The notes under the pieces were generated by a model. The model did no database searches. It worked only from the letters and a program-made list of their open reading frames with translations, and was not told the DNA's origin. A stretch of 41,632 nucleotides of DNA, taken from the sequence record NC_027994.1; one strand, given 5' to 3'. This DNA comes from Escherichia phage K1H. The position numbers and the translations under genes are program-made. Shown in pieces: positions 8,832 to 34,844 of this stretch; position 1 is the first letter of the stretch, and every line of letters starts with the position of its first letter.

Positions 8832-9244
8832 TGGGCTACTTTGAGGACTTAACAAAAGCGTTCGATGTTCCGCTGGTAGCCTTCGGAACCGCCAACGGCA
8901 TCAAGGTCGCGCTTGAAAACATCGACGCGCCGACGTCAACCGATACGCCATATCTGGCAAGTTACATGTTACTTGCGGATACGGAACAGGCGGATTTGTT
9001 CTTCACGGAACAACGCGCCGGTGTTTATCAGGTAGACATTAACTACGCATCGGTGAAAGGTAGCGCGCCAATCAATAAAATGGCAGACTTACTTAACACG
9101 GCGTTTAAAGCAGGTAAGTCATTTTCACGTAACGACATCTGCGCCGAGGTTCAATCGGTTAGCCTGGGGCCGCTGATTGTAGAAAACGGATGGGCCAAAC
9201 GACCATTGTCAATTAACTTTATTGCATTCACCAAGAGGCTGTGA
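8828..9244 (+). CDS. Tail terminator-like protein (putative)
   Basis: 138 aa, position immediately upstream of major tail protein. Confidence 0.45.
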   Translation: MMGYFEDLTKAFDVPLVAFGTANGIKVALENIDAPTSTDTPYLASYMLLADTEQADLFFTEQRAGVYQVDINYASVKGSAPINKMADLLNTAFKAGKSFSRNDICAEVQSVSLGPLIVENGWAKRPLSINFIAFTKRL

Positions 9245-9246
9245 AT

Positions 9247-10413
9247 ATGGCTACAACTCCTTTTAAGGGCGCGAATACCGCGCAATTCTATGTGGCGGAA
9301 GTCACCCCGGGCGTAACACCGACTAACCCGGTCTGGTCACCGTTGCGTAACACTGGCGGTGTTCCTGCTATCACCCGCGACACGCTGACCTCCAACGAAC
9401 TGGACGGCAGCCGTGAAACTACATCCATCCGCACCGGTAACAAACAGGTTAGCGGTGAATACGCGATCGAGCTTAGCTCGAAAAGCCAGGATGACTGGCT
9501 GGCTGGTGCTTTAGGCTCTACGTGGCAATCCGGTGTTTCCCTGTCCAGTCTGTCGATTACCGTCGCACCCGCGGGCAAGACGTTCACACGCGCTACCGGC
9601 AGTTTTATCACTGACGGAGTTGGGGTAGGCGACCTGATTGCATTTACCGATTTAACAGGCGATAACGCAAAACCATTTATTGTTACTGCAGTAACGGCTA
9701 CGGTTGTTACCGGTGCGGGCATCCAACACACCCTGACCACCGAGACAAAAACTAGTAAGGCTAAAACCGGCGACACGCTGGAAACCGGTAACACGTGTAA
9801 GACGTTCTCTATCCTTACCTGGTACAAAGGCCAGTGCGGCGGTACTGACGCGTACACGTTAACCAAAGGCGTGGAAGTTTCTGGTTTTACCATCGAACAG
9901 GCTGTTAACGCGATGGTAACTGGCAGCTTCCCATTCATCGGTCGCAGTCAGGAGATTCTCACTACGCCGCCGACCGGTTCCAACTTCTCATCTGTTACTT
10001 TTGGTGATGAGCCGTTCTCTTCGGTTGACGTTTCCGTGTTCGATGGCTCTACGCCGTTGCGTTGTGATAGCCTTACTATCACCAACGACAACAGCGCGTC
10101 CGCACAGTTCGAACTCGGCAACACTAACGTAGCGTTTGTGGAGCGTAGCCGAGCAGCTAACACCTTCTCCATCTCCGGTAAGCTGTACGACATGGCGATG
10201 ATTCAGAAGTTTATCAACGAGCAGCAGGTGGAGATTAACTCTATTCTGGCTGGGGTAAACGGGGCTATGTCTTTCAGTTTGAAACGTGCAGAACTTACGG
10301 CGGTTACACCTGAGATTGGAGGACCTGAGTCAATCACTCAGTCTATTGAAGGCCAGGCTACTGGCAACCAGTACCAGTCGTCTATTGTTATTCAGCGTAT
10401 CACATACGCATAA
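9247..10413 (+). CDS. Major tail protein
   Basis: 389 aa from ATG 9247 (AGAGG SD); Thr/Ser/Gly-rich; followed by strong terminator. Confidence 0.65.
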   Translation: MATTPFKGANTAQFYVAEVTPGVTPTNPVWSPLRNTGGVPAITRDTLTSNELDGSRETTSIRTGNKQVSGEYAIELSSKSQDDWLAGALGSTWQSGVSLSSLSITVAPAGKTFTRATGSFITDGVGVGDLIAFTDLTGDNAKPFIVTAVTATVVTGAGIQHTLTTETKTSKAKTGDTLETGNTCKTFSILTWYKGQCGGTDAYTLTKGVEVSGFTIEQAVNAMVTGSFPFIGRSQEILTTPPTGSNFSSVTFGDEPFSSVDVSVFDGSTPLRCDSLTITNDNSASAQFELGNTNVAFVERSRAANTFSISGKLYDMAMIQKFINEQQVEINSILAGVNGAMSFSLKRAELTAVTPEIGGPESITQSIEGQATGNQYQSSIVIQRITYA

Positions 10414-10441: not shown

Positions 10442-10996
10442 TTACAAACCTAATCTTAAAGCAATGCCTATAGCGTTCGATTTAACGTAACCCGGTATGA
10501 TGTAGGTGTCATAATCTTTTACACCATCAATATCGTACAGGTAACCGCGGCTGTCCCCTTCAAACGTATGGCCGTCTCTGTGCAAGCGGACGATTCTCAC
10601 ATCATGCCCCGCGGCAACGATAGGGGCTACTTCGCTGGCGAACCCGCCATCAGACACCACAAAAACTTCGTCGCCGTCGGGCAAGTTTCCGGCAAGATAC
10701 TTACCGAAATAATCATCACCGAATACCGGTTTAATGAATTGCTCGGAAATGGCAATCATGAACTGACGCCGAGACAACCCGTTAAGGAAACCCTCTGGCT
10801 TTTCTTTCCGCGCCCGGTCGTCGTAGCCGTCGAGAAACTCGCGGTAAGCATCCCGGCCTAACGCAGCCATAGCAATATTGAACATCGGATTCTTGAAACT
10901 GGCGACACCCTTCGCAAAGCCCATTTCTACCAGCGCCCTAGCAAGTGTGTCTTTCCCGCAGCCCGCAGGACCATTAAGAATAATTACCTTAGCCAT
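10442..10996 (-). CDS. P-loop nucleotide/nucleoside-monophosphate kinase-like protein
   Basis: 184 aa; Walker A GPAGCGKDT near N-terminus (GKDT variant as in phage dNMP kinases). Confidence 0.55.
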   Translation of the reverse strand: MAKVIILNGPAGCGKDTLARALVEMGFAKGVASFKNPMFNIAMAALGRDAYREFLDGYDDRARKEKPEGFLNGLSRRQFMIAISEQFIKPVFGDDYFGKYLAGNLPDGDEVFVVSDGGFASEVAPIVAAGHDVRIVRLHRDGHTFEGDSRGYLYDIDGVKDYDTYIIPGYVKSNAIGIALRLGL

Positions 10997-11481
10997 TATT
11001 TATCACTCCCATGTGGTTTTAAGTGTGTAGAGTTCCCGTTACAGTCGTATTCAGTAACTGCGTGAGTGGTTATGCCGAGTTCGCGGAAATGCTTTATTAC
11101 CGCTGGAGAGTCGTCGAATGCACACAAGATTCTCTCCGGCCCAATAGCACGCAACACCTCTTCTTTAATTACGATGTCTTTTCTGTTGTCGTGTTTGCTG
11201 CGCATGATTAACTGATAAAATTCGACGCGGTGGCGCTGCAACCACATTCTGGTTTCTTTTTCCGCGTCATCACTACGGCCTGTTAAGATAATAACGGCAT
11301 AGCGACGATTAAGGGCGTTACACAGTTCGATGTTATCTTTAATGGGTGCATCGTCTTTGCACGCCATGTTAAATGGTTTCCACGCCCAGGTTTCGCCGTA
11401 GTTATCTTTCGGCAGCAGGTGTAAACGATGGGTACCATCTGCCAATGTCCCGTCTAAATCGAAAATCACAATATCTTTCAC
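10996..11481 (-). CDS. HAD-superfamily phosphatase (nucleotidase or Pnk-phosphatase-like)
   Basis: 161 aa; N-terminal DxDGT motif (FDLDGTL). Confidence 0.6.
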   Translation of the reverse strand: MKDIVIFDLDGTLADGTHRLHLLPKDNYGETWAWKPFNMACKDDAPIKDNIELCNALNRRYAVIILTGRSDDAEKETRMWLQRHRVEFYQLIMRSKHDNRKDIVIKEEVLRAIGPERILCAFDDSPAVIKHFRELGITTHAVTEYDCNGNSTHLKPHGSDK

Positions 11482-12608
11482 CCAAGCATCTCCGGTGAAA
11501 TAGTTAAACGTGCGACCTCGCCATATTCGGCGCTATAAGTAATTACGTTTGCACTGCGGCCCGACATCCACCCACCGCGGGAGGCATATGCATCTTTAGC
11601 CGCGAGAGTGCGGTGTTGCTCAACAATCATGTTACGGCTTTCTACAATCTTTTGGTGGTGCAGGTGACCCACGTGGGCGTAGCTGTAAACACTCTCGCCG
11701 AACGCTTTGCGGAACTTGGCGATCATAACCGGTTCGATAGCGTCGAATCGTGCTTTATGCCCATGATGGAAGAACAGCGTCGTTTTGCCGTGTTGCACCA
11801 TCTTGTAAACATCCGGCGACGTATCGACGAACACACGCGGCTCATTGTCATACAGCGTACTAAACATCTCAGCTAACCAAATCATTCCGCTTTCGTCGTG
11901 GTTACCTTGCACGATAAGCAAGCGAACATTTTTATGTTTAACGAGAGCCATATCAATGACACGGCGGACCATACGAATCATGTAGCGTACAAGTTTCTGA
12001 TAGCGGGTGTCAGCGTCAAGAACATGACCACTGGCAGGTGTAACGGCGTCCAGACTATCGAAATGCGCAAGGTCGCCCAGCAGATTAATAACTCCTGTTC
12101 CGGTATCCGGTGCTTTCTGGAACGCTGCGTCGAACCAGCGGGAGAACAGGTCTTCCGCAATCTTCATGTCCCAGTCGTCGCCGCTCTCGTCAGCCCAGGC
12201 CAGCATACCGAGATGGAAATCAGACACAGTGTAAAGGTTGAGTAGCTTGTCGTCTCGTTTGGCGCGAACGGCTTTAACAGGTGCAACTGGTGTAATCTCC
12301 GACTTCATGCCTTCGATTACGGCTTTCATCAATTCAACCTGACGTTCGGCATCGGTGTCGGTCTTAACCCATTGCAACTTGGTGTTGCCAAACTCATCCA
12401 CCAGTGATGACGTTCCTTTAATCTTGTAGCCGTCCGGTACAAGGTAACTAACGTCACGCCCGTGGCCTACACCTTTCTTAGCCAGCTTCGCTTTACGGAT
12501 ACGAATAACGCGGTCGGAGATGCCGTATTTACGGGCGATGTCGATATTCTTCATACCGGCGTTCAATTCTTCCTGCAACTGTTCGTCGGTTATTTTCTTC
12601 TGGGCCAT
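11478..12608 (-). CDS. Calcineurin-like metallophosphoesterase with N-terminal HTH domain
   Basis: 376 aa; motifs DFH, GDLAHFD, GNHDE, HHGH, GHLHH; N-terminal approx 50 aa HTH-like; GAGGAAG SD. Confidence 0.65.
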   Translation of the reverse strand: MAQKKITDEQLQEELNAGMKNIDIARKYGISDRVIRIRKAKLAKKGVGHGRDVSYLVPDGYKIKGTSSLVDEFGNTKLQWVKTDTDAERQVELMKAVIEGMKSEITPVAPVKAVRAKRDDKLLNLYTVSDFHLGMLAWADESGDDWDMKIAEDLFSRWFDAAFQKAPDTGTGVINLLGDLAHFDSLDAVTPASGHVLDADTRYQKLVRYMIRMVRRVIDMALVKHKNVRLLIVQGNHDESGMIWLAEMFSTLYDNEPRVFVDTSPDVYKMVQHGKTTLFFHHGHKARFDAIEPVMIAKFRKAFGESVYSYAHVGHLHHQKIVESRNMIVEQHRTLAAKDAYASRGGWMSGRSANVITYSAEYGEVARLTISPEMLG

Positions 12609-12673
12609 GCTTACTTCCTCGTGTTTAGGATTTGTCCTATTTAACCACAGTGCATTCCTTTAAATAAAGGCGA

Positions 12674-13000
12674 CTATTTACTTTCCGCACCTATTGCCCA
12701 TCCGGTCATTACCATTTGCAGACGCGTGGCTGTCAGTAGGCTGTAGAATGCATCTCCGTTTTTCTCTACAGAACGTATTACCGTGTAGGTTACGGCTTGC
12801 GGGGGTAGGCCCGATTTACCAACCTCTACGGCGGCCTCACACTCGCGAACTGTAGAGTCCTTAAATGCCTTTACAATAGTAGGGTCGGCTTTCTCAAGCA
12901 CACCAGAAGTCATAAGAACAGATTCACTAAATACCTGTTCGCACGGGGCCCCAAAAGTAGCAAAAGACATAAGCCCCAGAGCTAATACTAATTTACGCAT
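12674..13000 (-). CDS. Small secreted/periplasmic protein (signal peptide)
   Basis: 108 aa; N-terminal MRKLVLALGLMSFATFGAP signal sequence; GAGGGA SD; class-1 promoter directly upstream. Confidence 0.5.
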   Translation of the reverse strand: MRKLVLALGLMSFATFGAPCEQVFSESVLMTSGVLEKADPTIVKAFKDSTVRECEAAVEVGKSGLPPQAVTYTVIRSVEKNGDAFYSLLTATRLQMVMTGWAIGAESK

Positions 13001-13028
13001 AATTGTTCCCTCAGTAAGTTACAGGTGA

Positions 13029-13057
13029 ATAGTACCCTATTATATTGGGGTGTGCAA
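13029..13057 (-). promoter_or_regulatory. Sigma70-like promoter, class 1 (TTGCAC-N17-TACTAT) with dyad GAATAG-TACC-CTATTA
   Basis: -35 at 13052-13057, -10 at 13029-13034 on minus strand; 34-bp segment nearly identical to 35234-35268. Confidence 0.55.
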
Positions 13058-13164
13058 GTAGTGTGCTAGAATAAGTTTGCGCCTAGTGTCGCACACGAAA
13101 AGCGGGTGGTTCCCGTCTGGCGCATTAACCTTAACCCGTAACCTCTTAACCAAAGGATTAAAGA

Positions 13165-13581
13165 ATGAAACTTTCTGATTTTTATTTTGCTGACCGCCAC
13201 GCTGCTGGTACTAAAATGCCTATCCTTCTGCCGAGCGGTAAAGACTCCGGCGAATGGTTGCAGGTCATAGGCCCTGATTGTGATGCAGGTGTTCGTGCAG
13301 GCCGCGCCTACACAACGGCAATTAGACGCCTTACGGAAGAACTCGCGCCATTAGATAAAGAGTGTGAGGCGCTGAATAACTGGGCGCGCTATAACGACGA
13401 GAAGGGCTGGCGGGTGATGGACCTGAACAAGCAGCTTGCCGTGGAAATCGTCACCGGTTGGTCATTCGATGAGCCGTTCAGCAAAGAGGCGCTGGCTAAC
13501 CTGTTCGACCAGTACAGCGGACTGGCAGAAGCTGTAGTTAAGCACCACACCGATAGCCGCGAGAAACTCTCGGAAAAGTAA
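13165..13581 (+). CDS. Tail assembly chaperone (lambda gpG-like by position)
   Basis: 138-aa acidic protein upstream of tape measure gene. Confidence 0.5.
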   Translation: MKLSDFYFADRHAAGTKMPILLPSGKDSGEWLQVIGPDCDAGVRAGRAYTTAIRRLTEELAPLDKECEALNNWARYNDEKGWRVMDLNKQLAVEIVTGWSFDEPFSKEALANLFDQYSGLAEAVVKHHTDSREKLSEK

Positions 13582-13670
13582 AAGCGCTGTATGAATTTGC
13601 GCAATGGTGTTTTGTTGACCGCCATAAGCGTAAGCAATTTGACGACATCGCGGCGGGCCACCAGGCGGCT

Positions 13671-13943
13671 TTGATTGCAATGGGCGTGATTAAAGAACCG
13701 CAGATGAAAGAAGCGACGGGGCCAGAATGCCCCGTTTCTCTTATCGATGTGTTCGAGAAATACCGTGCCATTAAATTCCTACAGCGCGAAACAGATGATA
13801 CTATCGTTATAATCCCGCGCGACGCGCTCAAATGGCAAGATTTGGTAGCGTTTCGTGATGTCGCCGGTTACGGCATAAGTTTGTTCGAAGCCGAGGTTAT
13901 CATGGGCTTAGACGGAATATTTGAGGGCAGAGAAGATGGCTGA
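13671..13943 (+). CDS. Hypothetical protein (possible second tail chaperone)
   Basis: 90-aa ORF (TTG start in track, ATG at 13680) between chaperone and tape measure; no SD seen. Confidence 0.3.
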   Translation: MIAMGVIKEPQMKEATGPECPVSLIDVFEKYRAIKFLQRETDDTIVIIPRDALKWQDLVAFRDVAGYGISLFEAEVIMGLDGIFEGREDG

Positions 13944-20180: not shown

Positions 20181-23135
20181 ATGTCAAGCGGATGCGGTGA
20201 CGTTTTAAGCCTGGCGGATTTACAAACCGCCAAGAAACATCAGATTTTCGAGGCCGAGGTTATCACTGGCAAATCCGGCGGTGTCGCCGGTGGTGCCGAT
20301 ATTGATTACGCGACAAATCAGGTTACTGGACAGACCCAGAAGACGTTACCTGCCGTGTTGCGTGATGCTGGTTTTAAACTGGCAGATTTTGATTTCACGT
20401 CAGGCGGTACACTATCCGCTAACGACCGAAACACCGCAGTTTTGTGGCCGTCGTCCTCTGGCGGTGACGGGGATTGGTACTATTGGTTGGGCGCTCTGCC
20501 AAAAACTATCCCGGCGTCATCTTCTCCGCAGTCTACAGGAGGCGTGTCCGAAGGGGCATGGCAACGCGCCGGGTCGGTCGTACTGAGGCAGCAAATATCT
20601 AATGCGAACGGCGCAATTCTGTACCCAGATTTACATGTGGCGCGATGGAAGGACGAATACGACCCGCGCGCATGGGGCGCCGTGGGCGACGGCGTAACTG
20701 ATGATACCCAATCTATTTTTAATGTATTAGCCGCTTCACCCAACAATTGGATTATAGACGGCAGGGGCTTGACTTATAAAGTTTCCCAATTACCCGACAT
20801 TAGTAAATTTAAGAATGCTGCATTCGTTTACGAGCGCGTAGCCGGGCAACCGCTTACTTATGTAGCTGATGGCTTCTTTAACAGCTCACTAACTAAGGTG
20901 ACGGATACCCCGTTCTACAACGCATGGACGCAGGATAAAACTTTCGTCTACGACAATGTTATTTACGCTCCGTTTATGGCAGGCGAACGACATGGCGTTC
21001 AAAACTTACATGTAGCTTGGGTTCGCTCTGGTGACGACGGGCAGACTTGGTCAATGCCTGAGTGGTTGACCCCAATCCATGCTGACTATAATGCTAGTGT
21101 TTCCGCGGACAGAGTTAACTACCACTGCATGAGCATGGGTACGTGCGGCAACCGATTATATGCAGTTATAGAAACCCGCTACTTATCTAATATGCGGATG
21201 AAGAAGGCAGAACTTTGGTCACGCCCAATGCCGTATTTTAGACACCCAACCGGCGGAATAGCTATTAGTTCTGGCTCCACTACTGCTACCATTGTCATAG
21301 AAAATCATGGCCTAAAAGCAGGAGATGCGGTTAACTTCTCTAATACATCGGCAACTGGCGTATCGGGTAATATGACGGTTGCGTCTATAATTAACCGAAA
21401 TACGTTCACTGTTACGCTCTCAAGCCCGGCGAGTTCCACCATAAACAATGCGGGTGTTACCTGGAACTTCGCAACGCGATTCTGGGACAGCCCGTGGGAA
21501 ATTACCGAATTGCCTGGGGTAGCATACTCCGCTAACGCTGATTTGTGTGTCACGGAGACACATAGTTTTGCGGTTATAGATGATGTTAACTACACTATCG
21601 CTGTCGGCTATCACAACGGCGATGTGCCCCCTAGGCGTCTCGGTGTCTTGTATTTTAGTAACGTGTATGACAATCCTGGCGTATTCGTTCGTCGCACTGT
21701 CGCTCAGGCATACGCTGATAACGCTTCTGAGCCGTGCGTGAAAAGTTATGACGGTGTACTCTACCTTACCACACGCGGCACATTACCTACTTCCCCTGGC
21801 TCTACACTGGCGATGAGCACCGATTCTGGGCAAAACTGGAGCTACTTGCGATTTCCGAACAATGTACATCACTCCAATCTTCCGTTCGCTAAAGTAGGTG
21901 ACTATCTCTACATCTTTGGTACAGAACGTGCCTTTGGCGAGTGGGAAGGGGGCGAGCCGGACAGCCGCTATGAAGGCTCGTATCCAAGGACCTTTATGTG
22001 CAAAGTTAATGTGTCGTCCTGGCCTCCATCTTTAGATGATGTTCAGTGGTTTAATATTACCGACCAAATATACCAGGGTCATATCGTTAACACTGCTGTC
22101 GGCGTCGGCTCGGTCTGTGTTAAAGATGGCTGGTTGTACTATATCTTTGGTGGGGAAGACTTCTTCTCTCCCTGGAGCATAGGGGATAACAGTGCGAAGT
22201 TATGGTACAAACATGATGGACATCCTGCTGACTTATATAGCTACCGGATAAAGATTGAAGACCACCCGTATGTATCCCGTGATTTCAAATACGGAGCAAC
22301 TCCTAACCGTACACTACCTGTCGCCATGGGGGTAGATGGTGTACGTCATGTAGGGGCACCTTTAACATTTGATAATGATGTAAGCGTGTACTCCCTGCAT
22401 GTAACGGGGCTGGAATACGATGGTACACAACAGTCCGCCGTGCGTGCACAGTTTGATGGTGATTACGGGCTGATTTCAAAAACAGTCCCCACTAAAACCC
22501 CATCGGGTCAAAGACTGATAGTTAGCGGTGGTGATGGTGCATCCAGTTCCGATGGTGCGTTGCTGCAACTGTACGGGGCAAACCATGCAATGCCTAACAG
22601 GGCTATTATGTATGCGTCAGGAGGCTTCTACTCATACAACAATTTCCTTCCTTACTTAGACTCGCAAGTGTCTTTAGGTTCGGCAGGTAATAGGTGGACT
22701 ACGGTGTACGCGACCACCGGTACGATAAACACGTCTGATGGTACACTTAAGACGAATAAAGAGGAAATTGAGGGACAACTCCTTACCGCATGGGAAGATA
22801 TACATGTAATATCTTTTAAGTGGCTTGAAAGCCTAGCAATCAAGGGTGACACTGCAAGGATACACTTCGGTGTGATAGCCCAAGATGTGCGAGACATCTT
22901 GGTCAACCATGGGCTTATGGAGAAAGATTCTACCGATTGTAAATATGCTTTCTTGTGCTACGACCCAATTGAAGCTGCGTATGATATTGATGAAGATGGC
23001 CAGACTGTACAAGTATCCCCTCCCGGCGGCAGATGGGGGGTTAGGGCGGACCAGATGTTCTTCATAGAGATTGCCTATCAGCGTAAGAAGATGCGCGAGT
23101 TCGAGAAGAGGCTGGCAGCACTAGAAGATAAATAA
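20181..23135 (+). CDS. Tailspike / receptor-binding depolymerase with C-terminal intramolecular chaperone domain
   Basis: 984 aa; GAVGDGVTDDT motif (pectate-lyase-like beta-helix signature), two Asp-box-like motifs (SGDDGQTW, STDSGQNW), C-terminal region resembling self-cleaving chaperone domains of tail fibers/endosialidases. Confidence 0.65.
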   Translation: MSSGCGDVLSLADLQTAKKHQIFEAEVITGKSGGVAGGADIDYATNQVTGQTQKTLPAVLRDAGFKLADFDFTSGGTLSANDRNTAVLWPSSSGGDGDWYYWLGALPKTIPASSSPQSTGGVSEGAWQRAGSVVLRQQISNANGAILYPDLHVARWKDEYDPRAWGAVGDGVTDDTQSIFNVLAASPNNWIIDGRGLTYKVSQLPDISKFKNAAFVYERVAGQPLTYVADGFFNSSLTKVTDTPFYNAWTQDKTFVYDNVIYAPFMAGERHGVQNLHVAWVRSGDDGQTWSMPEWLTPIHADYNASVSADRVNYHCMSMGTCGNRLYAVIETRYLSNMRMKKAELWSRPMPYFRHPTGGIAISSGSTTATIVIENHGLKAGDAVNFSNTSATGVSGNMTVASIINRNTFTVTLSSPASSTINNAGVTWNFATRFWDSPWEITELPGVAYSANADLCVTETHSFAVIDDVNYTIAVGYHNGDVPPRRLGVLYFSNVYDNPGVFVRRTVAQAYADNASEPCVKSYDGVLYLTTRGTLPTSPGSTLAMSTDSGQNWSYLRFPNNVHHSNLPFAKVGDYLYIFGTERAFGEWEGGEPDSRYEGSYPRTFMCKVNVSSWPPSLDDVQWFNITDQIYQGHIVNTAVGVGSVCVKDGWLYYIFGGEDFFSPWSIGDNSAKLWYKHDGHPADLYSYRIKIEDHPYVSRDFKYGATPNRTLPVAMGVDGVRHVGAPLTFDNDVSVYSLHVTGLEYDGTQQSAVRAQFDGDYGLISKTVPTKTPSGQRLIVSGGDGASSSDGALLQLYGANHAMPNRAIMYASGGFYSYNNFLPYLDSQVSLGSAGNRWTTVYATTGTINTSDGTLKTNKEEIEGQLLTAWEDIHVISFKWLESLAIKGDTARIHFGVIAQDVRDILVNHGLMEKDSTDCKYAFLCYDPIEAAYDIDEDGQTVQVSPPGGRWGVRADQMFFIEIAYQRKKMREFEKRLAALEDK

Positions 23136-34370: not shown

Positions 34371-34691
34371 TTATTCCAGGTCGTGGGAGATATTACCCTC
34401 GGGCACCAACACTTTTCCAATACTTCTCGCTTTCTCTGTAATAGGCGTCGCTCTTGTTGCCCGATAAAACTTTCCTTTATTAAGAATCTCACCATGTCGC
34501 TCGAGCACATCTAAAGCATGTTTGATCGGGTTTACACCGTAATTATCCAACCGGTATCTCCGAAGCCCGTCTACCGTAAAAGCGCCGTTCGCTTCGGTCA
34601 GTCTGCGTGCACACATTAATATGTGTTTCTGGAATTTAGTTAGCATCTTTAACGTTCTCCTTAATCCACGCCTCCACAGTAGCGCGGTCAA
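34371..34691 (-). CDS. Hypothetical protein
   Basis: 106-aa track ORF overlapping upstream gene by 56 nt; true start probably an internal ATG. Confidence 0.4.
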   Translation of the reverse strand: MTALLWRRGLRRTLKMLTKFQKHILMCARRLTEANGAFTVDGLRRYRLDNYGVNPIKHALDVLERHGEILNKGKFYRATRATPITEKARSIGKVLVPEGNISHDLE

Positions 34692-34815
34692 AGGTACCTG
34701 GCTGACGGTAGCCGTTAATAACCCGGCAACACTCAGGGAACTTACCCGACCGCAGCCAGCGATTAAGCGTCATAGGAGAAACTCCGATTAAGTCTGCTAC
34801 TTCTTTCTGTGTCAT
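34636..34815 (-). CDS. AlpA/excisionase-family HTH DNA-binding protein
   Basis: 59 aa from ATG 34815 (AGAGGG SD); MTQKEVADLIGVSPMTLNRWLRSGKFP... matches AlpA-like pattern. Confidence 0.55.
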   Translation of the reverse strand: MTQKEVADLIGVSPMTLNRWLRSGKFPECCRVINGYRQPGTFDRATVEAWIKENVKDAN

Positions 34816-34844
34816 TTTACACGCCCTCTTTATCAAGTGAAACA

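What the first reader, a model, noticed from the sequence alone, without database searches (positions are those of the whole stretch)
12674..13000. Secreted small protein under a dyad-controlled early promoter
A 108-aa protein with a classical N-terminal signal peptide is the first gene after promoter 13029-13057, in a location typical of morons. Periplasmic phage proteins in such positions often mediate superinfection exclusion or receptor modification.
Basis: inference. Interest (0 to 1): 0.4.

Follow-up and report, generated by a model that had tools for sequence, protein, structure and literature searches.

The report
Exported small phage protein, Imm-swappable slot
A virulent K1-capsule coliphage (genus Kagunavirus) encodes a small exported helical protein of unknown family at a genome position where most relatives carry a T4-type superinfection-immunity membrane protein. 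It is therefore a reasonable but untested candidate for a new kind of phage-exclusion factor.

Summary
The ORF at 12674-13000 (minus strand, 108 aa) is a real gene under strong purifying selection (dN/dS 0.03-0.07). It has a Sec-type signal sequence by rule-based criteria. All 55 relatives analysed have one too, and 10 of them carry a lipoprotein lipobox instead. Two cysteines are invariant.

The AlphaFold model is a confident all-helical bundle with no match to any solved fold. No Pfam, NCBIfam or PADLOC family matches. The family occurs only on 40-45 kb Guernseyvirinae-like phage contigs.

The gene is always the first gene transcribed away from the tail-assembly-chaperone gene. In GenBank coliphages this position holds either this family (33 records) or a T4 Imm-family protein (81 records), together 114 of 114. 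More distant relatives carry other small membrane proteins there. That supports an envelope-acting, exclusion-like role, but only by inference.

The promoter matches consensus at only 7 of 12 positions, which is chance level, but its key bases are phylogenetically conserved. The "dyad" is part of a covarying structured RNA on the opposite strand (13076-13140), which resembles the Rfam int-alpA motif and lies in the leader of the tail operon. Glycan-receptor modification is unlikely, because 98% identical proteins occur in K1-specific and O16-specific phages.

The parts
12674..13000 (-). Gene for the 108-aa exported protein (precursor 11.6 kDa; predicted mature form about 91 aa, 9.7 kDa, pI 5.0)
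   Evidence: ORF. phrog_14165 at E 1e-55. dN/dS 0.03-0.07. Mass and pI. 100% identical to the phage K1H protein D2XJD6 and to phage G AB-2017 G_9.
12950..13000 (-). Codons 1-17, the predicted Sec signal peptide MRKLVLALGLMSFATFG, with predicted cleavage before APCEQ
   Evidence: Rule-based analysis. An equivalent N-terminus is present in 55 of 55 family members, and 10 of them have a lipobox. AlphaFold pLDDT is below 50 for residues 1-16 only.
13008..13012 (-). Shine-Dalgarno sequence GAGGG, 7 nt upstream of the ATG
   Evidence: Read directly from the sequence.
13029..13057 (-). Leftward promoter candidate P_L1: -35 TTGCAC (13057-13052), 17-nt spacer, -10 TACTAT (13034-13029).
   Evidence: Only 7 of 12 to consensus, which is chance level, and not called by the scan. 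However, TTGC and TAnTAT are invariant or nearly invariant in 12 diverse relatives.
13039..13067 (-). Alternative or tandem leftward promoter candidate P_L2: AGCACA, 17-nt spacer, TATAAT
   Evidence: 9 of 12 to consensus. Positions 2 and 6 of the -10 hexamer (13043, 13039) are invariant in alignment A4.
13076..13140 (+). Structured RNA motif (an outer stem enclosing two hairpins) in the leader of the rightward tail operon.
   Evidence: Rfam int-alpA RF02996: 31.6 bits (gathering score 35.8), full-length match, E 6e-5 to 9e-3 depending on the search space. In 19 relatives, 92% of cells are paired and 8 of 15 pairs show compensatory changes, with 0 of 500 shuffles as good; G-U pairs favour the + strand. 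There is one copy per genome.
13064..13072 (+). Conserved extended -10 element TGcTAGAAT, a candidate rightward promoter that would start transcription at about the 5' end of the RNA motif
   Evidence: TTGGGG-16-TAGAAT scores 8 of 12. TGnTAGAAT is conserved in most relatives (sequences). Its function is inferred.
11478..12608 (-). Next gene in the leftward unit: metallophosphoesterase / 'DNA repair exonuclease'
   Evidence: phrog_704 at E 7e-167, weak Pfam Metallophos hit. No terminator-like structure in the 65-nt gap before it.
10442..11481 (-). Remaining leftward cassette genes: HAD-type polynucleotide-kinase phosphatase (10996-11481) and a dNMP-kinase-like P-loop protein (10442-10996)
   Evidence: Pfam HAD_PNKP at E 7e-20, phrog_415 and phrog_139. 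This part of the cassette varies between relatives.
13165..13581 (+). Divergently transcribed tail assembly chaperone gene, the fixed right-hand neighbour of the variable position
   Evidence: Pfam Phage_TAC_4 at E 1e-8, phrog_15027.

Best explanation
The gene encodes a small pre-protein that is exported through Sec and cleaved near residue 17. The mature protein would be a ~91-residue acidic helical bundle in the periplasm of the infected cell. Its two invariant cysteines suggest a disulfide bond.

The gene is transcribed by host RNA polymerase from a conserved sigma-70-like promoter in the 164-bp region shared with the divergent tail operon. It is the first gene of a leftward unit that continues into DNA-metabolism genes.

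The same position in most sister phages carries a T4 Imm-family inner-membrane protein, and in more distant relatives other small membrane proteins. The most likely job is therefore the one Imm does: protecting the infected cell's envelope against secondary infection by blocking a step after adsorption (periplasmic transit or DNA ejection) rather than the receptor.

What is shown: the gene is real, the signal-type N-terminus is present in every member analysed, the fold is helical and unmatched, and the position is swapped with Imm. What is inferred: export, cleavage site, disulfide, promoter use and the exclusion function.

My estimates are about 0.9 for export, about 0.85 for 'swappable envelope-acting accessory gene', and about 0.4 for superinfection exclusion at a post-adsorption step.
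For: - Signal-type N-terminus by rule, present in 55 of 55 relatives. Ten relatives replace it with a lipobox-type signal, which makes sense only for an envelope protein.
- The two cysteines are invariant and 34-37 residues apart. The conserved domain starts 1-3 residues after the predicted cleavage site.
- Strong purifying selection.
- AlphaFold pLDDT 84 and pTM 0.75, five helices, with only the signal peptide disordered.
- GenBank counts. Of 114 Escherichia, Kagunavirus and Shigella records with this region, 33 match this family and 81 match Imm. For Salmonella phages the figures are 64 and 263 of 358.
- The alternative occupant matches Pfam Imm_superinfect at E 7.5e-13, above the gathering score. 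The window has no Imm homologue anywhere.
- In IMG/VR loci the position holds this family, Imm, or other one- or two-transmembrane small proteins, and never both of the first two.
- Distant and lipoprotein-type members sit in the same position although the rest of the cassette differs.
- Baig et al. 2017 list the superinfection-immunity gene among the few genes that distinguish phage P from phages G and L.
- The protein is 98% identical in K1-specific and O16-specific phages, so its target does not depend on the glycan receptor.
- GC3 is 0.42 against 0.57 in neighbouring genes, consistent with an exchangeable cassette.
Against: - No experiment exists on any member of the family.
- Sharing a position does not prove sharing a function. 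Variable positions in phage genomes often hold functionally unrelated cargo.
- There is no sequence or fold similarity to any known exclusion protein: none to Imm, and no significant match in any family or fold library searched, so nothing resembling Sp, Sim, Llp or Cor turned up.
- dN/dS of 0.03-0.07 is low for a protein engaged in a phage-phage arms race.
- Signal-peptide cleavage was judged by rule only.
- The one RNA-seq study of a relative places the gene at this position in the latest-peaking class, which does not fit an early protective role. That classification is coarse, however, and it groups the gene with DNA polymerase and methylases.
Confidence: 0.4

Rival explanations
1. The protein is exported but does something other than exclusion in the periplasm. 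Possibilities include control of lysis timing (an antiholin-like sensor such as T4 RI, itself a small helical periplasmic protein), protection of the murein or outer membrane during infection, or interference with a host envelope function.
For: The evidence for export is the same as for the main explanation. The small all-helical periplasmic domain is compatible with many binding roles. High sequence constraint fits a conserved host or phage partner. In the K1B4 RNA-seq the gene at this position peaks late.
Confidence: 0.3
2. Receptor modification or masking. The periplasmic protein would alter O-antigen or capsule synthesis or export, so that the infected cell and its debris no longer adsorb phage.
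For: Guernseyvirinae depend on surface glycans as receptors (BASEL paper). A periplasmic location would give access to the Wzy, Wzz and Wza machineries.
Against: The protein is 98% identical between phage G / this window (endosialidase tailspike, K1 capsule) and Bas71-73 (O16 O-antigen dependent). It is still about 60% identical in Salmonella O-antigen phages. A glycan-specific target is therefore unlikely. The protein has no enzyme-like fold.
Confidence: 0.07
3. The N-terminal hydrophobic segment is not cleaved and acts as a signal anchor. The protein would then be a bitopic inner-membrane protein with a periplasmic helical domain. This is a localisation variant and is compatible with either functional reading.
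For: The c-region is not a textbook A-x-A: the best site is T-F-G|A, and Pro19 lies close to it. Other occupants of this position are membrane-anchored. Some relatives are lipid-anchored.
Against: The hydrophobic core has only about 13 residues, which is short for a transmembrane helix. Jersey-type relatives have a clean S-F-A|H site, and the phiEap-2 type has A-x-A|T immediately before the conserved PCE.
Confidence: 0.12
4. The ORF is not a functional gene, and the apparent signal peptide is a chance hydrophobic stretch.
For: No Pfam, NCBIfam or PADLOC family matches.
Against: dN/dS is 0.03-0.07. There are at least 100 homologues with conserved length, cysteines and C-terminal motif. The AlphaFold model is confident. 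A good ribosome-binding site is present.
Confidence: 0.01

Closest known systems
T4 Imm (Pfam PF14373, Imm_superinfect)
   Same: It occupies exactly the same genome position in sister Guernseyvirinae: first gene divergent from the tail assembly chaperone gene. It is small, encoded by a virulent phage and acts at the envelope. The two genes partition the coliphage records (33 + 81 = 114).
   Different: Imm-type proteins here are 63-68 aa with two transmembrane helices and no cleavable signal. The window protein is a 108-aa secreted helical domain with two cysteines. It has no sequence similarity to Imm and no PF14373 hit.
P1 Sim and T4 Sp (periplasm-facing exclusion proteins; from my own knowledge)
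   Same: These are phage-encoded proteins that act from the periplasmic side after adsorption. Sim is processed by signal peptidase, and Sp blocks the tail lysozyme. This is the kind of mechanism proposed here.
   Different: No homology was detected. No Pfam family matched any of 38 members at E up to 10, and no fold match was found. Sim is much larger (about 24 kDa) and prophage-encoded. I did not compare the sequences directly.
T5 Llp and the Cor lipoproteins of T1, phi80 and N15 (from my own knowledge; T5 paper listed)
   Same: They are small exported phage proteins encoded next to tail or receptor-binding genes. Ten relatives of the window protein carry a lipobox, as Llp and Cor do.
   Different: Llp and Cor block a specific outer-membrane protein receptor (FhuA). 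Kagunaviruses use glycans and have no known protein receptor. The window protein itself has no lipobox, because Pro precedes the Cys. There is no sequence or fold similarity.
Streptococcal phage TP-J34 Ltp (from my own knowledge)
   Same: It is an extracytoplasmic, all-helical small domain and is thought to intercept the tape measure protein of incoming siphoviruses. That is an attractive model here, since the gene sits next to the chaperone and tape-measure genes.
Rfam int-alpA RNA (RF02996), for the 'dyad' only
   Same: The architecture is the same: an outer stem enclosing two hairpins, with GAAAA between them. The match to the model is full length.
   Different: The score of 31.6 is below the gathering score of 35.8. 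The context is a tail-operon leader in a virulent phage, not an int-alpA intergenic region. E. coli K-12 CP4-57 intA-alpA gave no match, and blastn against E. coli genomes found no similar sequence.

Membership tests
Sec/SPase I secreted protein (classical signal peptide) | Positively charged n-region | tested here: met
   M-R-K gives a net charge of +2 in the first 6 residues. All 55 relatives have +1 to +3.
Sec/SPase I secreted protein (classical signal peptide) | Hydrophobic h-region of about 7-15 residues | tested here: met
   LVLALGLMSFATF. The best 10-residue Kyte-Doolittle mean is 2.0-2.9 across the family.
Sec/SPase I secreted protein (classical signal peptide) | Small uncharged residues at -3 and -1, and no Pro at +1 | tested here: met
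   T-F-G|A-P-C after residue 17, or S-F-A|T after residue 14. Cleavage after residue 18 is excluded by Pro19. Relatives have S-F-A|H-P-C and A-x-A|T-P-C. This is rule-based; SignalP was not run.
Sec/SPase I secreted protein (classical signal peptide) | Actual export and cleavage | not testable with these tools
   Needs fractionation, PhoA fusions or N-terminal sequencing.
Bacterial lipoprotein (SPase II) | Lipobox [LVI][ASTVI][GAS]C at the end of the signal | tested here: not met
   The window protein has F-G-A-P-C, with Pro at -1. However, 10 of 55 relatives have [VFI][LI]GC at residues 14-17.
Moron (independent unit inserted in a phage operon; definition of Hendrix and Juhala, from my own knowledge) | Own promoter | tested here: inconclusive
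   Conserved -35 and -10 bases, but the consensus match is at chance level, and there are no transcription-start data.
Moron (independent unit inserted in a phage operon; definition of Hendrix and Juhala, from my own knowledge) | Own terminator directly after the gene | tested here: not met
   No terminator-like site in 12609-12673. The RNA fold of the gap has z = -0.24. Three co-oriented genes follow.
Moron (independent unit inserted in a phage operon; definition of Hendrix and Juhala, from my own knowledge) | Present in some and absent from other otherwise collinear relatives | tested here: not met
   The position is filled in nearly all relatives, and the gene is replaced (Imm, or one- or two-transmembrane proteins) rather than absent.
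Moron (independent unit inserted in a phage operon; definition of Hendrix and Juhala, from my own knowledge) | Deviant base composition | tested here: met
   GC 0.48 against 0.51 for the genome, and GC3 0.42 against 0.57 in the neighbours. The deviation is mild.
Moron (independent unit inserted in a phage operon; definition of Hendrix and Juhala, from my own knowledge) | Expressed from a prophage for the benefit of the lysogen | tested here: not met
   The phage is a Kagunavirus, a virulent siphovirus. No integrase is annotated in the close relative Bas70, whose one 'excisionase'-labelled product is only a small HTH_17 protein. Literature context.
T4 Imm family (PF14373) | Match to the Pfam model, and a two-transmembrane topology | tested here: not met
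   No Pfam hit for the window protein or for any of 38 relatives. The proteins of K1G and XY1 at this position do match, at E 7e-13 to 8e-14.
Known anti-phage defence or exclusion proteins in PADLOC | Match to any PADLOC model | tested here: not met
   No hit at E up to 1.
DUF3718 (the annotation given in the GenBank record of Salmonella phage S4lw) | Match to the Pfam model | tested here: not met
   Not among the hits for any of 38 members at E up to 10. The annotation was seen.
Rfam int-alpA RNA (RF02996), for the 'dyad' | Score at or above the gathering threshold | tested here: not met
   31.6 bits against 35.8.
Rfam int-alpA RNA (RF02996), for the 'dyad' | Conserved secondary structure supported by covariation | tested here: met
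   8 of 15 pairs have compensatory changes and 92% of cells are paired, against 28-62% in slid controls.
Rfam int-alpA RNA (RF02996), for the 'dyad' | Location between integrase and alpA genes | tested here: not met
   It lies between the exported-protein gene and the tail assembly chaperone gene. The phage has only a small HTH_17 protein, at about 34648-34830.

The most novel reading that the evidence does not exclude
This would be the founding member of a new family of periplasmic superinfection-exclusion proteins (soluble or lipid-anchored) in virulent siphoviruses, interchangeable with T4-Imm-type membrane proteins. It would block genome delivery after adsorption, for instance by capturing the tape-measure or ejection proteins of incoming phage in the periplasm, independently of which glycan receptor the phage uses.
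Probability: 0.33. Interest if true: 0.6.

Novelty: new variant of a known kind. Interest (0 to 1): 0.4.

Why it matters
Guernseyvirinae (Kagunavirus and Jerseyvirus) are among the phages most often isolated for E. coli K1 and Salmonella therapy and biocontrol. Which accessory gene they carry at this position could decide how members of a cocktail interfere with each other.

If the 108-aa protein is an exclusion factor, it would be a compact, structurally new periplasmic inhibitor of siphovirus genome delivery. It would also be a handle on the poorly understood periplasmic step of DNA ejection.

The two natural alleles (secreted protein versus Imm) in otherwise near-identical phages (G and L versus P; Bas70-73 versus others) make a ready-made experimental comparison.

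The structured RNA next to the gene may be a regulatory element of the tail operon and deserves its own test.

Tried and rejected
- Family assignment. Pfam, NCBIfam and PADLOC gave nothing for the protein. Scanning 38 relatives at E up to 10 gave only scattered single hits. PHROGs gave only phrog_14165, of unknown function.
- GenBank labels. 'Glycoprotein precursor' and 'DUF3718' could not be reproduced.
- Remote homology. Exhaustive HMMER on 1.8 billion representatives and two profile searches found only proteins of about 107-123 aa on phage-sized contigs. Three long hits (P0029, P0031, P0032) are repeat-inflated false positives.
- Terminator after the gene: none found.
- The dyad as an operator: rejected in favour of an RNA structure on the + strand.
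- Further copies of the RNA motif in the genome: none.
- Canonical context of int-alpA. E. coli K-12 CP4-57 intA-alpA gave no match. blastn of the motif against 5,426 E. coli genomes found nothing. The literature search was uninformative.
- Spanin or lysis role: set aside, because holins, endolysin and Rz/Rz1 are annotated elsewhere.

Full report
**What the window is.** The 41.6-kb window is essentially a complete Kagunavirus genome (subfamily Guernseyvirinae). The region around the finding is 98.7% identical to Escherichia phage G AB-2017, a virulent K1-specific siphovirus. The tailspike at 20181-23135 is an endosialidase. Head and tail genes run on the + strand from 1 to about 23.1 kb. They are interrupted by a four-gene minus-strand cassette at 10442-13000, between the tail tube gene (9241-10413) and the tail assembly chaperone gene (13165-13581). 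The finding is the first gene of that cassette.

**The ORF is a real gene.** The ORF at 12674-13000 (minus strand, 108 aa) starts with ATG, and GAGGG lies 7 nt upstream. Against nine Kagunavirus orthologues it shows 15-30 synonymous but only 2-6 non-synonymous differences, giving dN/dS of 0.03-0.07. It matches phrog_14165 (unknown function) over its full length at E 1e-55. It is 100% identical to the corresponding proteins of phage K1H and phage G.

**The signal peptide.** The N-terminus MRKLVLALGLMSFATFG|APCEQ has the three parts of a Sec signal: a +2 n-region, a 13-residue hydrophobic core, and small residues at -3 and -1. Pro19 rules out cleavage one residue later. There is no lipobox. All 55 full-length relatives analysed have an equivalent N-terminus. 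In ten of them it ends in [VFI][LI]GC, a lipoprotein signal followed by a short linker and then the same domain. Alternation between a soluble-secreted and a lipid-anchored form makes sense only for an envelope protein. The conserved domain begins 1-3 residues after the predicted cleavage site in every subgroup (G|APCE, A|HPCE, A|TPCE). Two cysteines 34-37 residues apart are invariant, which suggests a periplasmic disulfide. This analysis is rule-based, because no signal-peptide predictor was available.

**The position is the informative part.**
- A DNA search of the region shows many Kagunaviruses matching only the flanks.
- In K1G and vB_EcoS_XY1 the same position holds a 63-aa protein with two transmembrane helices. 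It matches Pfam Imm_superinfect, the T4 Imm family, at E 7.5e-13 to 7.7e-14.
- Counting GenBank phage records, 114 Escherichia, Kagunavirus and Shigella records carry the region. Of these, 33 encode the 108-aa family and 81 encode the Imm type. That is an exact partition by count. I could not list every record, so strict mutual exclusivity is inferred.
- For Salmonella phages the figures are 64 and 263 of 358.
- The window has no Imm homologue anywhere.
- In 49 IMG/VR loci retrieved with the chaperone protein, the first divergent ORF is this family (including distant members), or Imm, or another small protein with one or two transmembrane helices. The two main types never occur together.
- Three distant members, two of them lipoprotein types, sit in the same position although the rest of the cassette is completely different.
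- Baig et al. 2017 list the superinfection immunity protein and the tail assembly chaperone among the few genes that distinguish phage P from G and L.

The conserved feature is therefore a small envelope-targeted protein as the first gene divergent from the chaperone gene, and the identity of that protein is exchangeable.

**Promoter.** Matches that good occur about 12.7 times per kb per strand in this genome, and the scan tool did not call it. Conservation is what supports it. In 12 relatives whose cargo genes differ, TTGC of the -35 and TAnTAT of the -10 are invariant or nearly so, at fixed spacing. A second candidate 10 bp upstream, AGCACA-17-TATAAT, scores 9 of 12 and also has its key -10 positions conserved. 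Either would make the 108-aa gene the first gene transcribed. No terminator separates it from the metallophosphoesterase gene, so it is probably co-transcribed with the DNA-metabolism genes.

**Expression timing is open.** In the only RNA-seq study of a Kagunavirus (an Imm-type phage), the gene at this position falls in the latest-peaking class, together with DNA polymerase and methylases. The tail genes peak earlier. The time points are coarse and may include second-round infection. The study does show that the gene is regulated separately from its tail-gene neighbours.

**The 'dyad'.** The inverted repeat at 13061-13073 / 13084-13096 is 77% complementary and is not conserved as such in the Jersey-type relatives of the alignment. 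It overlaps a strikingly conserved block that Rfam recognises, below threshold, as int-alpA RNA on the + strand (13076-13140; 31.6 bits against a gathering score of 35.8; full-length match). In 19 relatives the three-helix structure is 92% paired. Eight of 15 pairs show compensatory changes, none of 500 shuffles does as well, and slid controls reach only 28-62% pairing. Several G-U pairs would be A-C on the other strand. The element therefore acts as RNA on the + strand, in the leader of the chaperone and tape-measure operon. A conserved extended -10 element (TGnTAGAAT, 13064-13072) precedes it. It occurs once per genome. It is not an operator dyad for the leftward promoter. The leftward and rightward promoter elements do interdigitate within about 45 bp, so competition between them is possible but untested.

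**Mechanism.** The best-supported account has four parts:
- The protein is exported and cleaved, giving a disulfide-stabilised helical protein in the periplasm.
- It is made from its own promoter during infection.
- It is functionally analogous to the Imm-type protein it replaces.
- It therefore protects the infected cell against secondary infection at a step after adsorption.

The protein is 98% identical in K1-capsule-specific phages (this window, G, K1H) and in O16-O-antigen-dependent phages (Bas71-73). It is still about 60% identical in Salmonella phages. Capture of the tape-measure or ejection proteins, as proposed for Ltp, is an attractive but purely speculative detail.

**Rivals.**
- Another periplasmic role, such as lysis-timing control of the T4 RI type.
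- An uncleaved signal anchor.
- Glycan modification.

The lysis genes are all accounted for elsewhere, and no fold similarity supports the first rival.

**Comparison and novelty.** The protein plausibly works like Imm, Sp, Sim or Llp, but it is a member of none of them. Each sequence or fold criterion that I tested was not met. It fails the strict definition of a moron on three counts: no terminator, replaced rather than present or absent, and a virulent phage. It does share the mild compositional deviation (GC3 0.42 against 0.57). The gene is already deposited many times as 'hypothetical protein'. What is new here:
- recognition of a coherent exported family with soluble and lipoprotein forms;
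- its fixed position;
- its alternation with Imm;
- the reassignment of the dyad to an RNA motif.

I rate it a new variant of a known kind (a phage envelope-acting accessory or exclusion factor). Interest is moderate, and function remains unproven.

Noticed in passing
window 13076-13140 (+), with a conserved TGnTAGAAT at 13064-13072: A strongly conserved three-helix RNA structure lies in the leader of the tail assembly chaperone and tape-measure operon. It gives a sub-threshold, full-length match to Rfam int-alpA (31.6 of 35.8 bits). Compensatory changes occur in 8 of 15 pairs across Guernseyvirinae, and there is a single copy per genome. It could be a cis-regulatory leader or antitermination-type element, or a small RNA.
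   Followed up: partly
window 13040-13153 (-); L002 4040-4132 (Bas70_0025): A 37-aa ORF (30 aa in Bas70, where it is annotated as a hypothetical protein) lies entirely inside the conserved intergenic region and overlaps the RNA motif. Its conservation is explained by the RNA and promoter elements, so it is probably not a gene.
   Followed up: partly
L004 1700-1891, L005 1754-1945, and IMG/VR loci L022 and L034-L051: In most Guernseyvirinae the same position holds a 59-68 aa protein of Pfam Imm_superinfect (T4 Imm family) with two transmembrane helices. In Kagunavirus this allele is linked to a chaperone allele only about 50% identical to the window's, whereas in Jersey-type phages the chaperone does not differ between the two types.
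   Followed up: partly
L016 2527-2964, L025 959-1165, L033 2638-2835, L048 2515-2838, L050 1900-2238: More distant relatives carry other small envelope proteins at this position: N-terminally anchored one-transmembrane proteins, an unrelated 65-aa two-transmembrane protein, and further signal-peptide proteins with two cysteines that look like very remote members of the same superfamily (C-terminal G-[FYW]-A-[FY]-G-E).
   Followed up: partly
window 10442-11481 (-) versus L002 2251-2481, L007, L059-L062: The remainder of the leftward cassette is highly variable between relatives. The window has a PNK-type phosphatase and a dNMP kinase, Bas70 has a DUF3310 protein, others have small ORFs or a phiTE_015-like protein, and phiEap-2 has nothing. 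Only the first (envelope-protein) gene position and the intergenic region are constant.
   Followed up: no
window about 34648-34830 (-): A small HTH_17 (Xis/AlpA/MerR-like) protein, annotated in Bas70 as 'excisionase and transcriptional regulator', is present in a virulent phage. Given the int-alpA-like RNA, it is a candidate regulator of the tail operon, but no link was tested.
   Followed up: no
window 13029-13072: The leftward (-35 TTGCAC, -10 TACTAT or TATAAT) and rightward (-35 TTGGGG, -10 TGcTAGAAT) promoter candidates interdigitate within about 45 bp. RNA polymerase binding to the two may therefore be mutually exclusive.
   Followed up: no
window 13165-13943 (+); L005 805-1586 (K1G ORF22A/22B joined): The chaperone gene is followed by an overlapping or extended ORF that is annotated as a joined product in K1G. 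This is the usual programmed frameshift of siphovirus tail chaperones and is ordinary.
   Followed up: no
proteins P0029, P0031, P0032: Long repetitive proteins scored as 'homologues' of the 108-aa protein in the exhaustive HMMER search. They are repeat-inflated false positives (one repeats the string TFGAPCEAT) and should not be used to infer function.
   Followed up: yes
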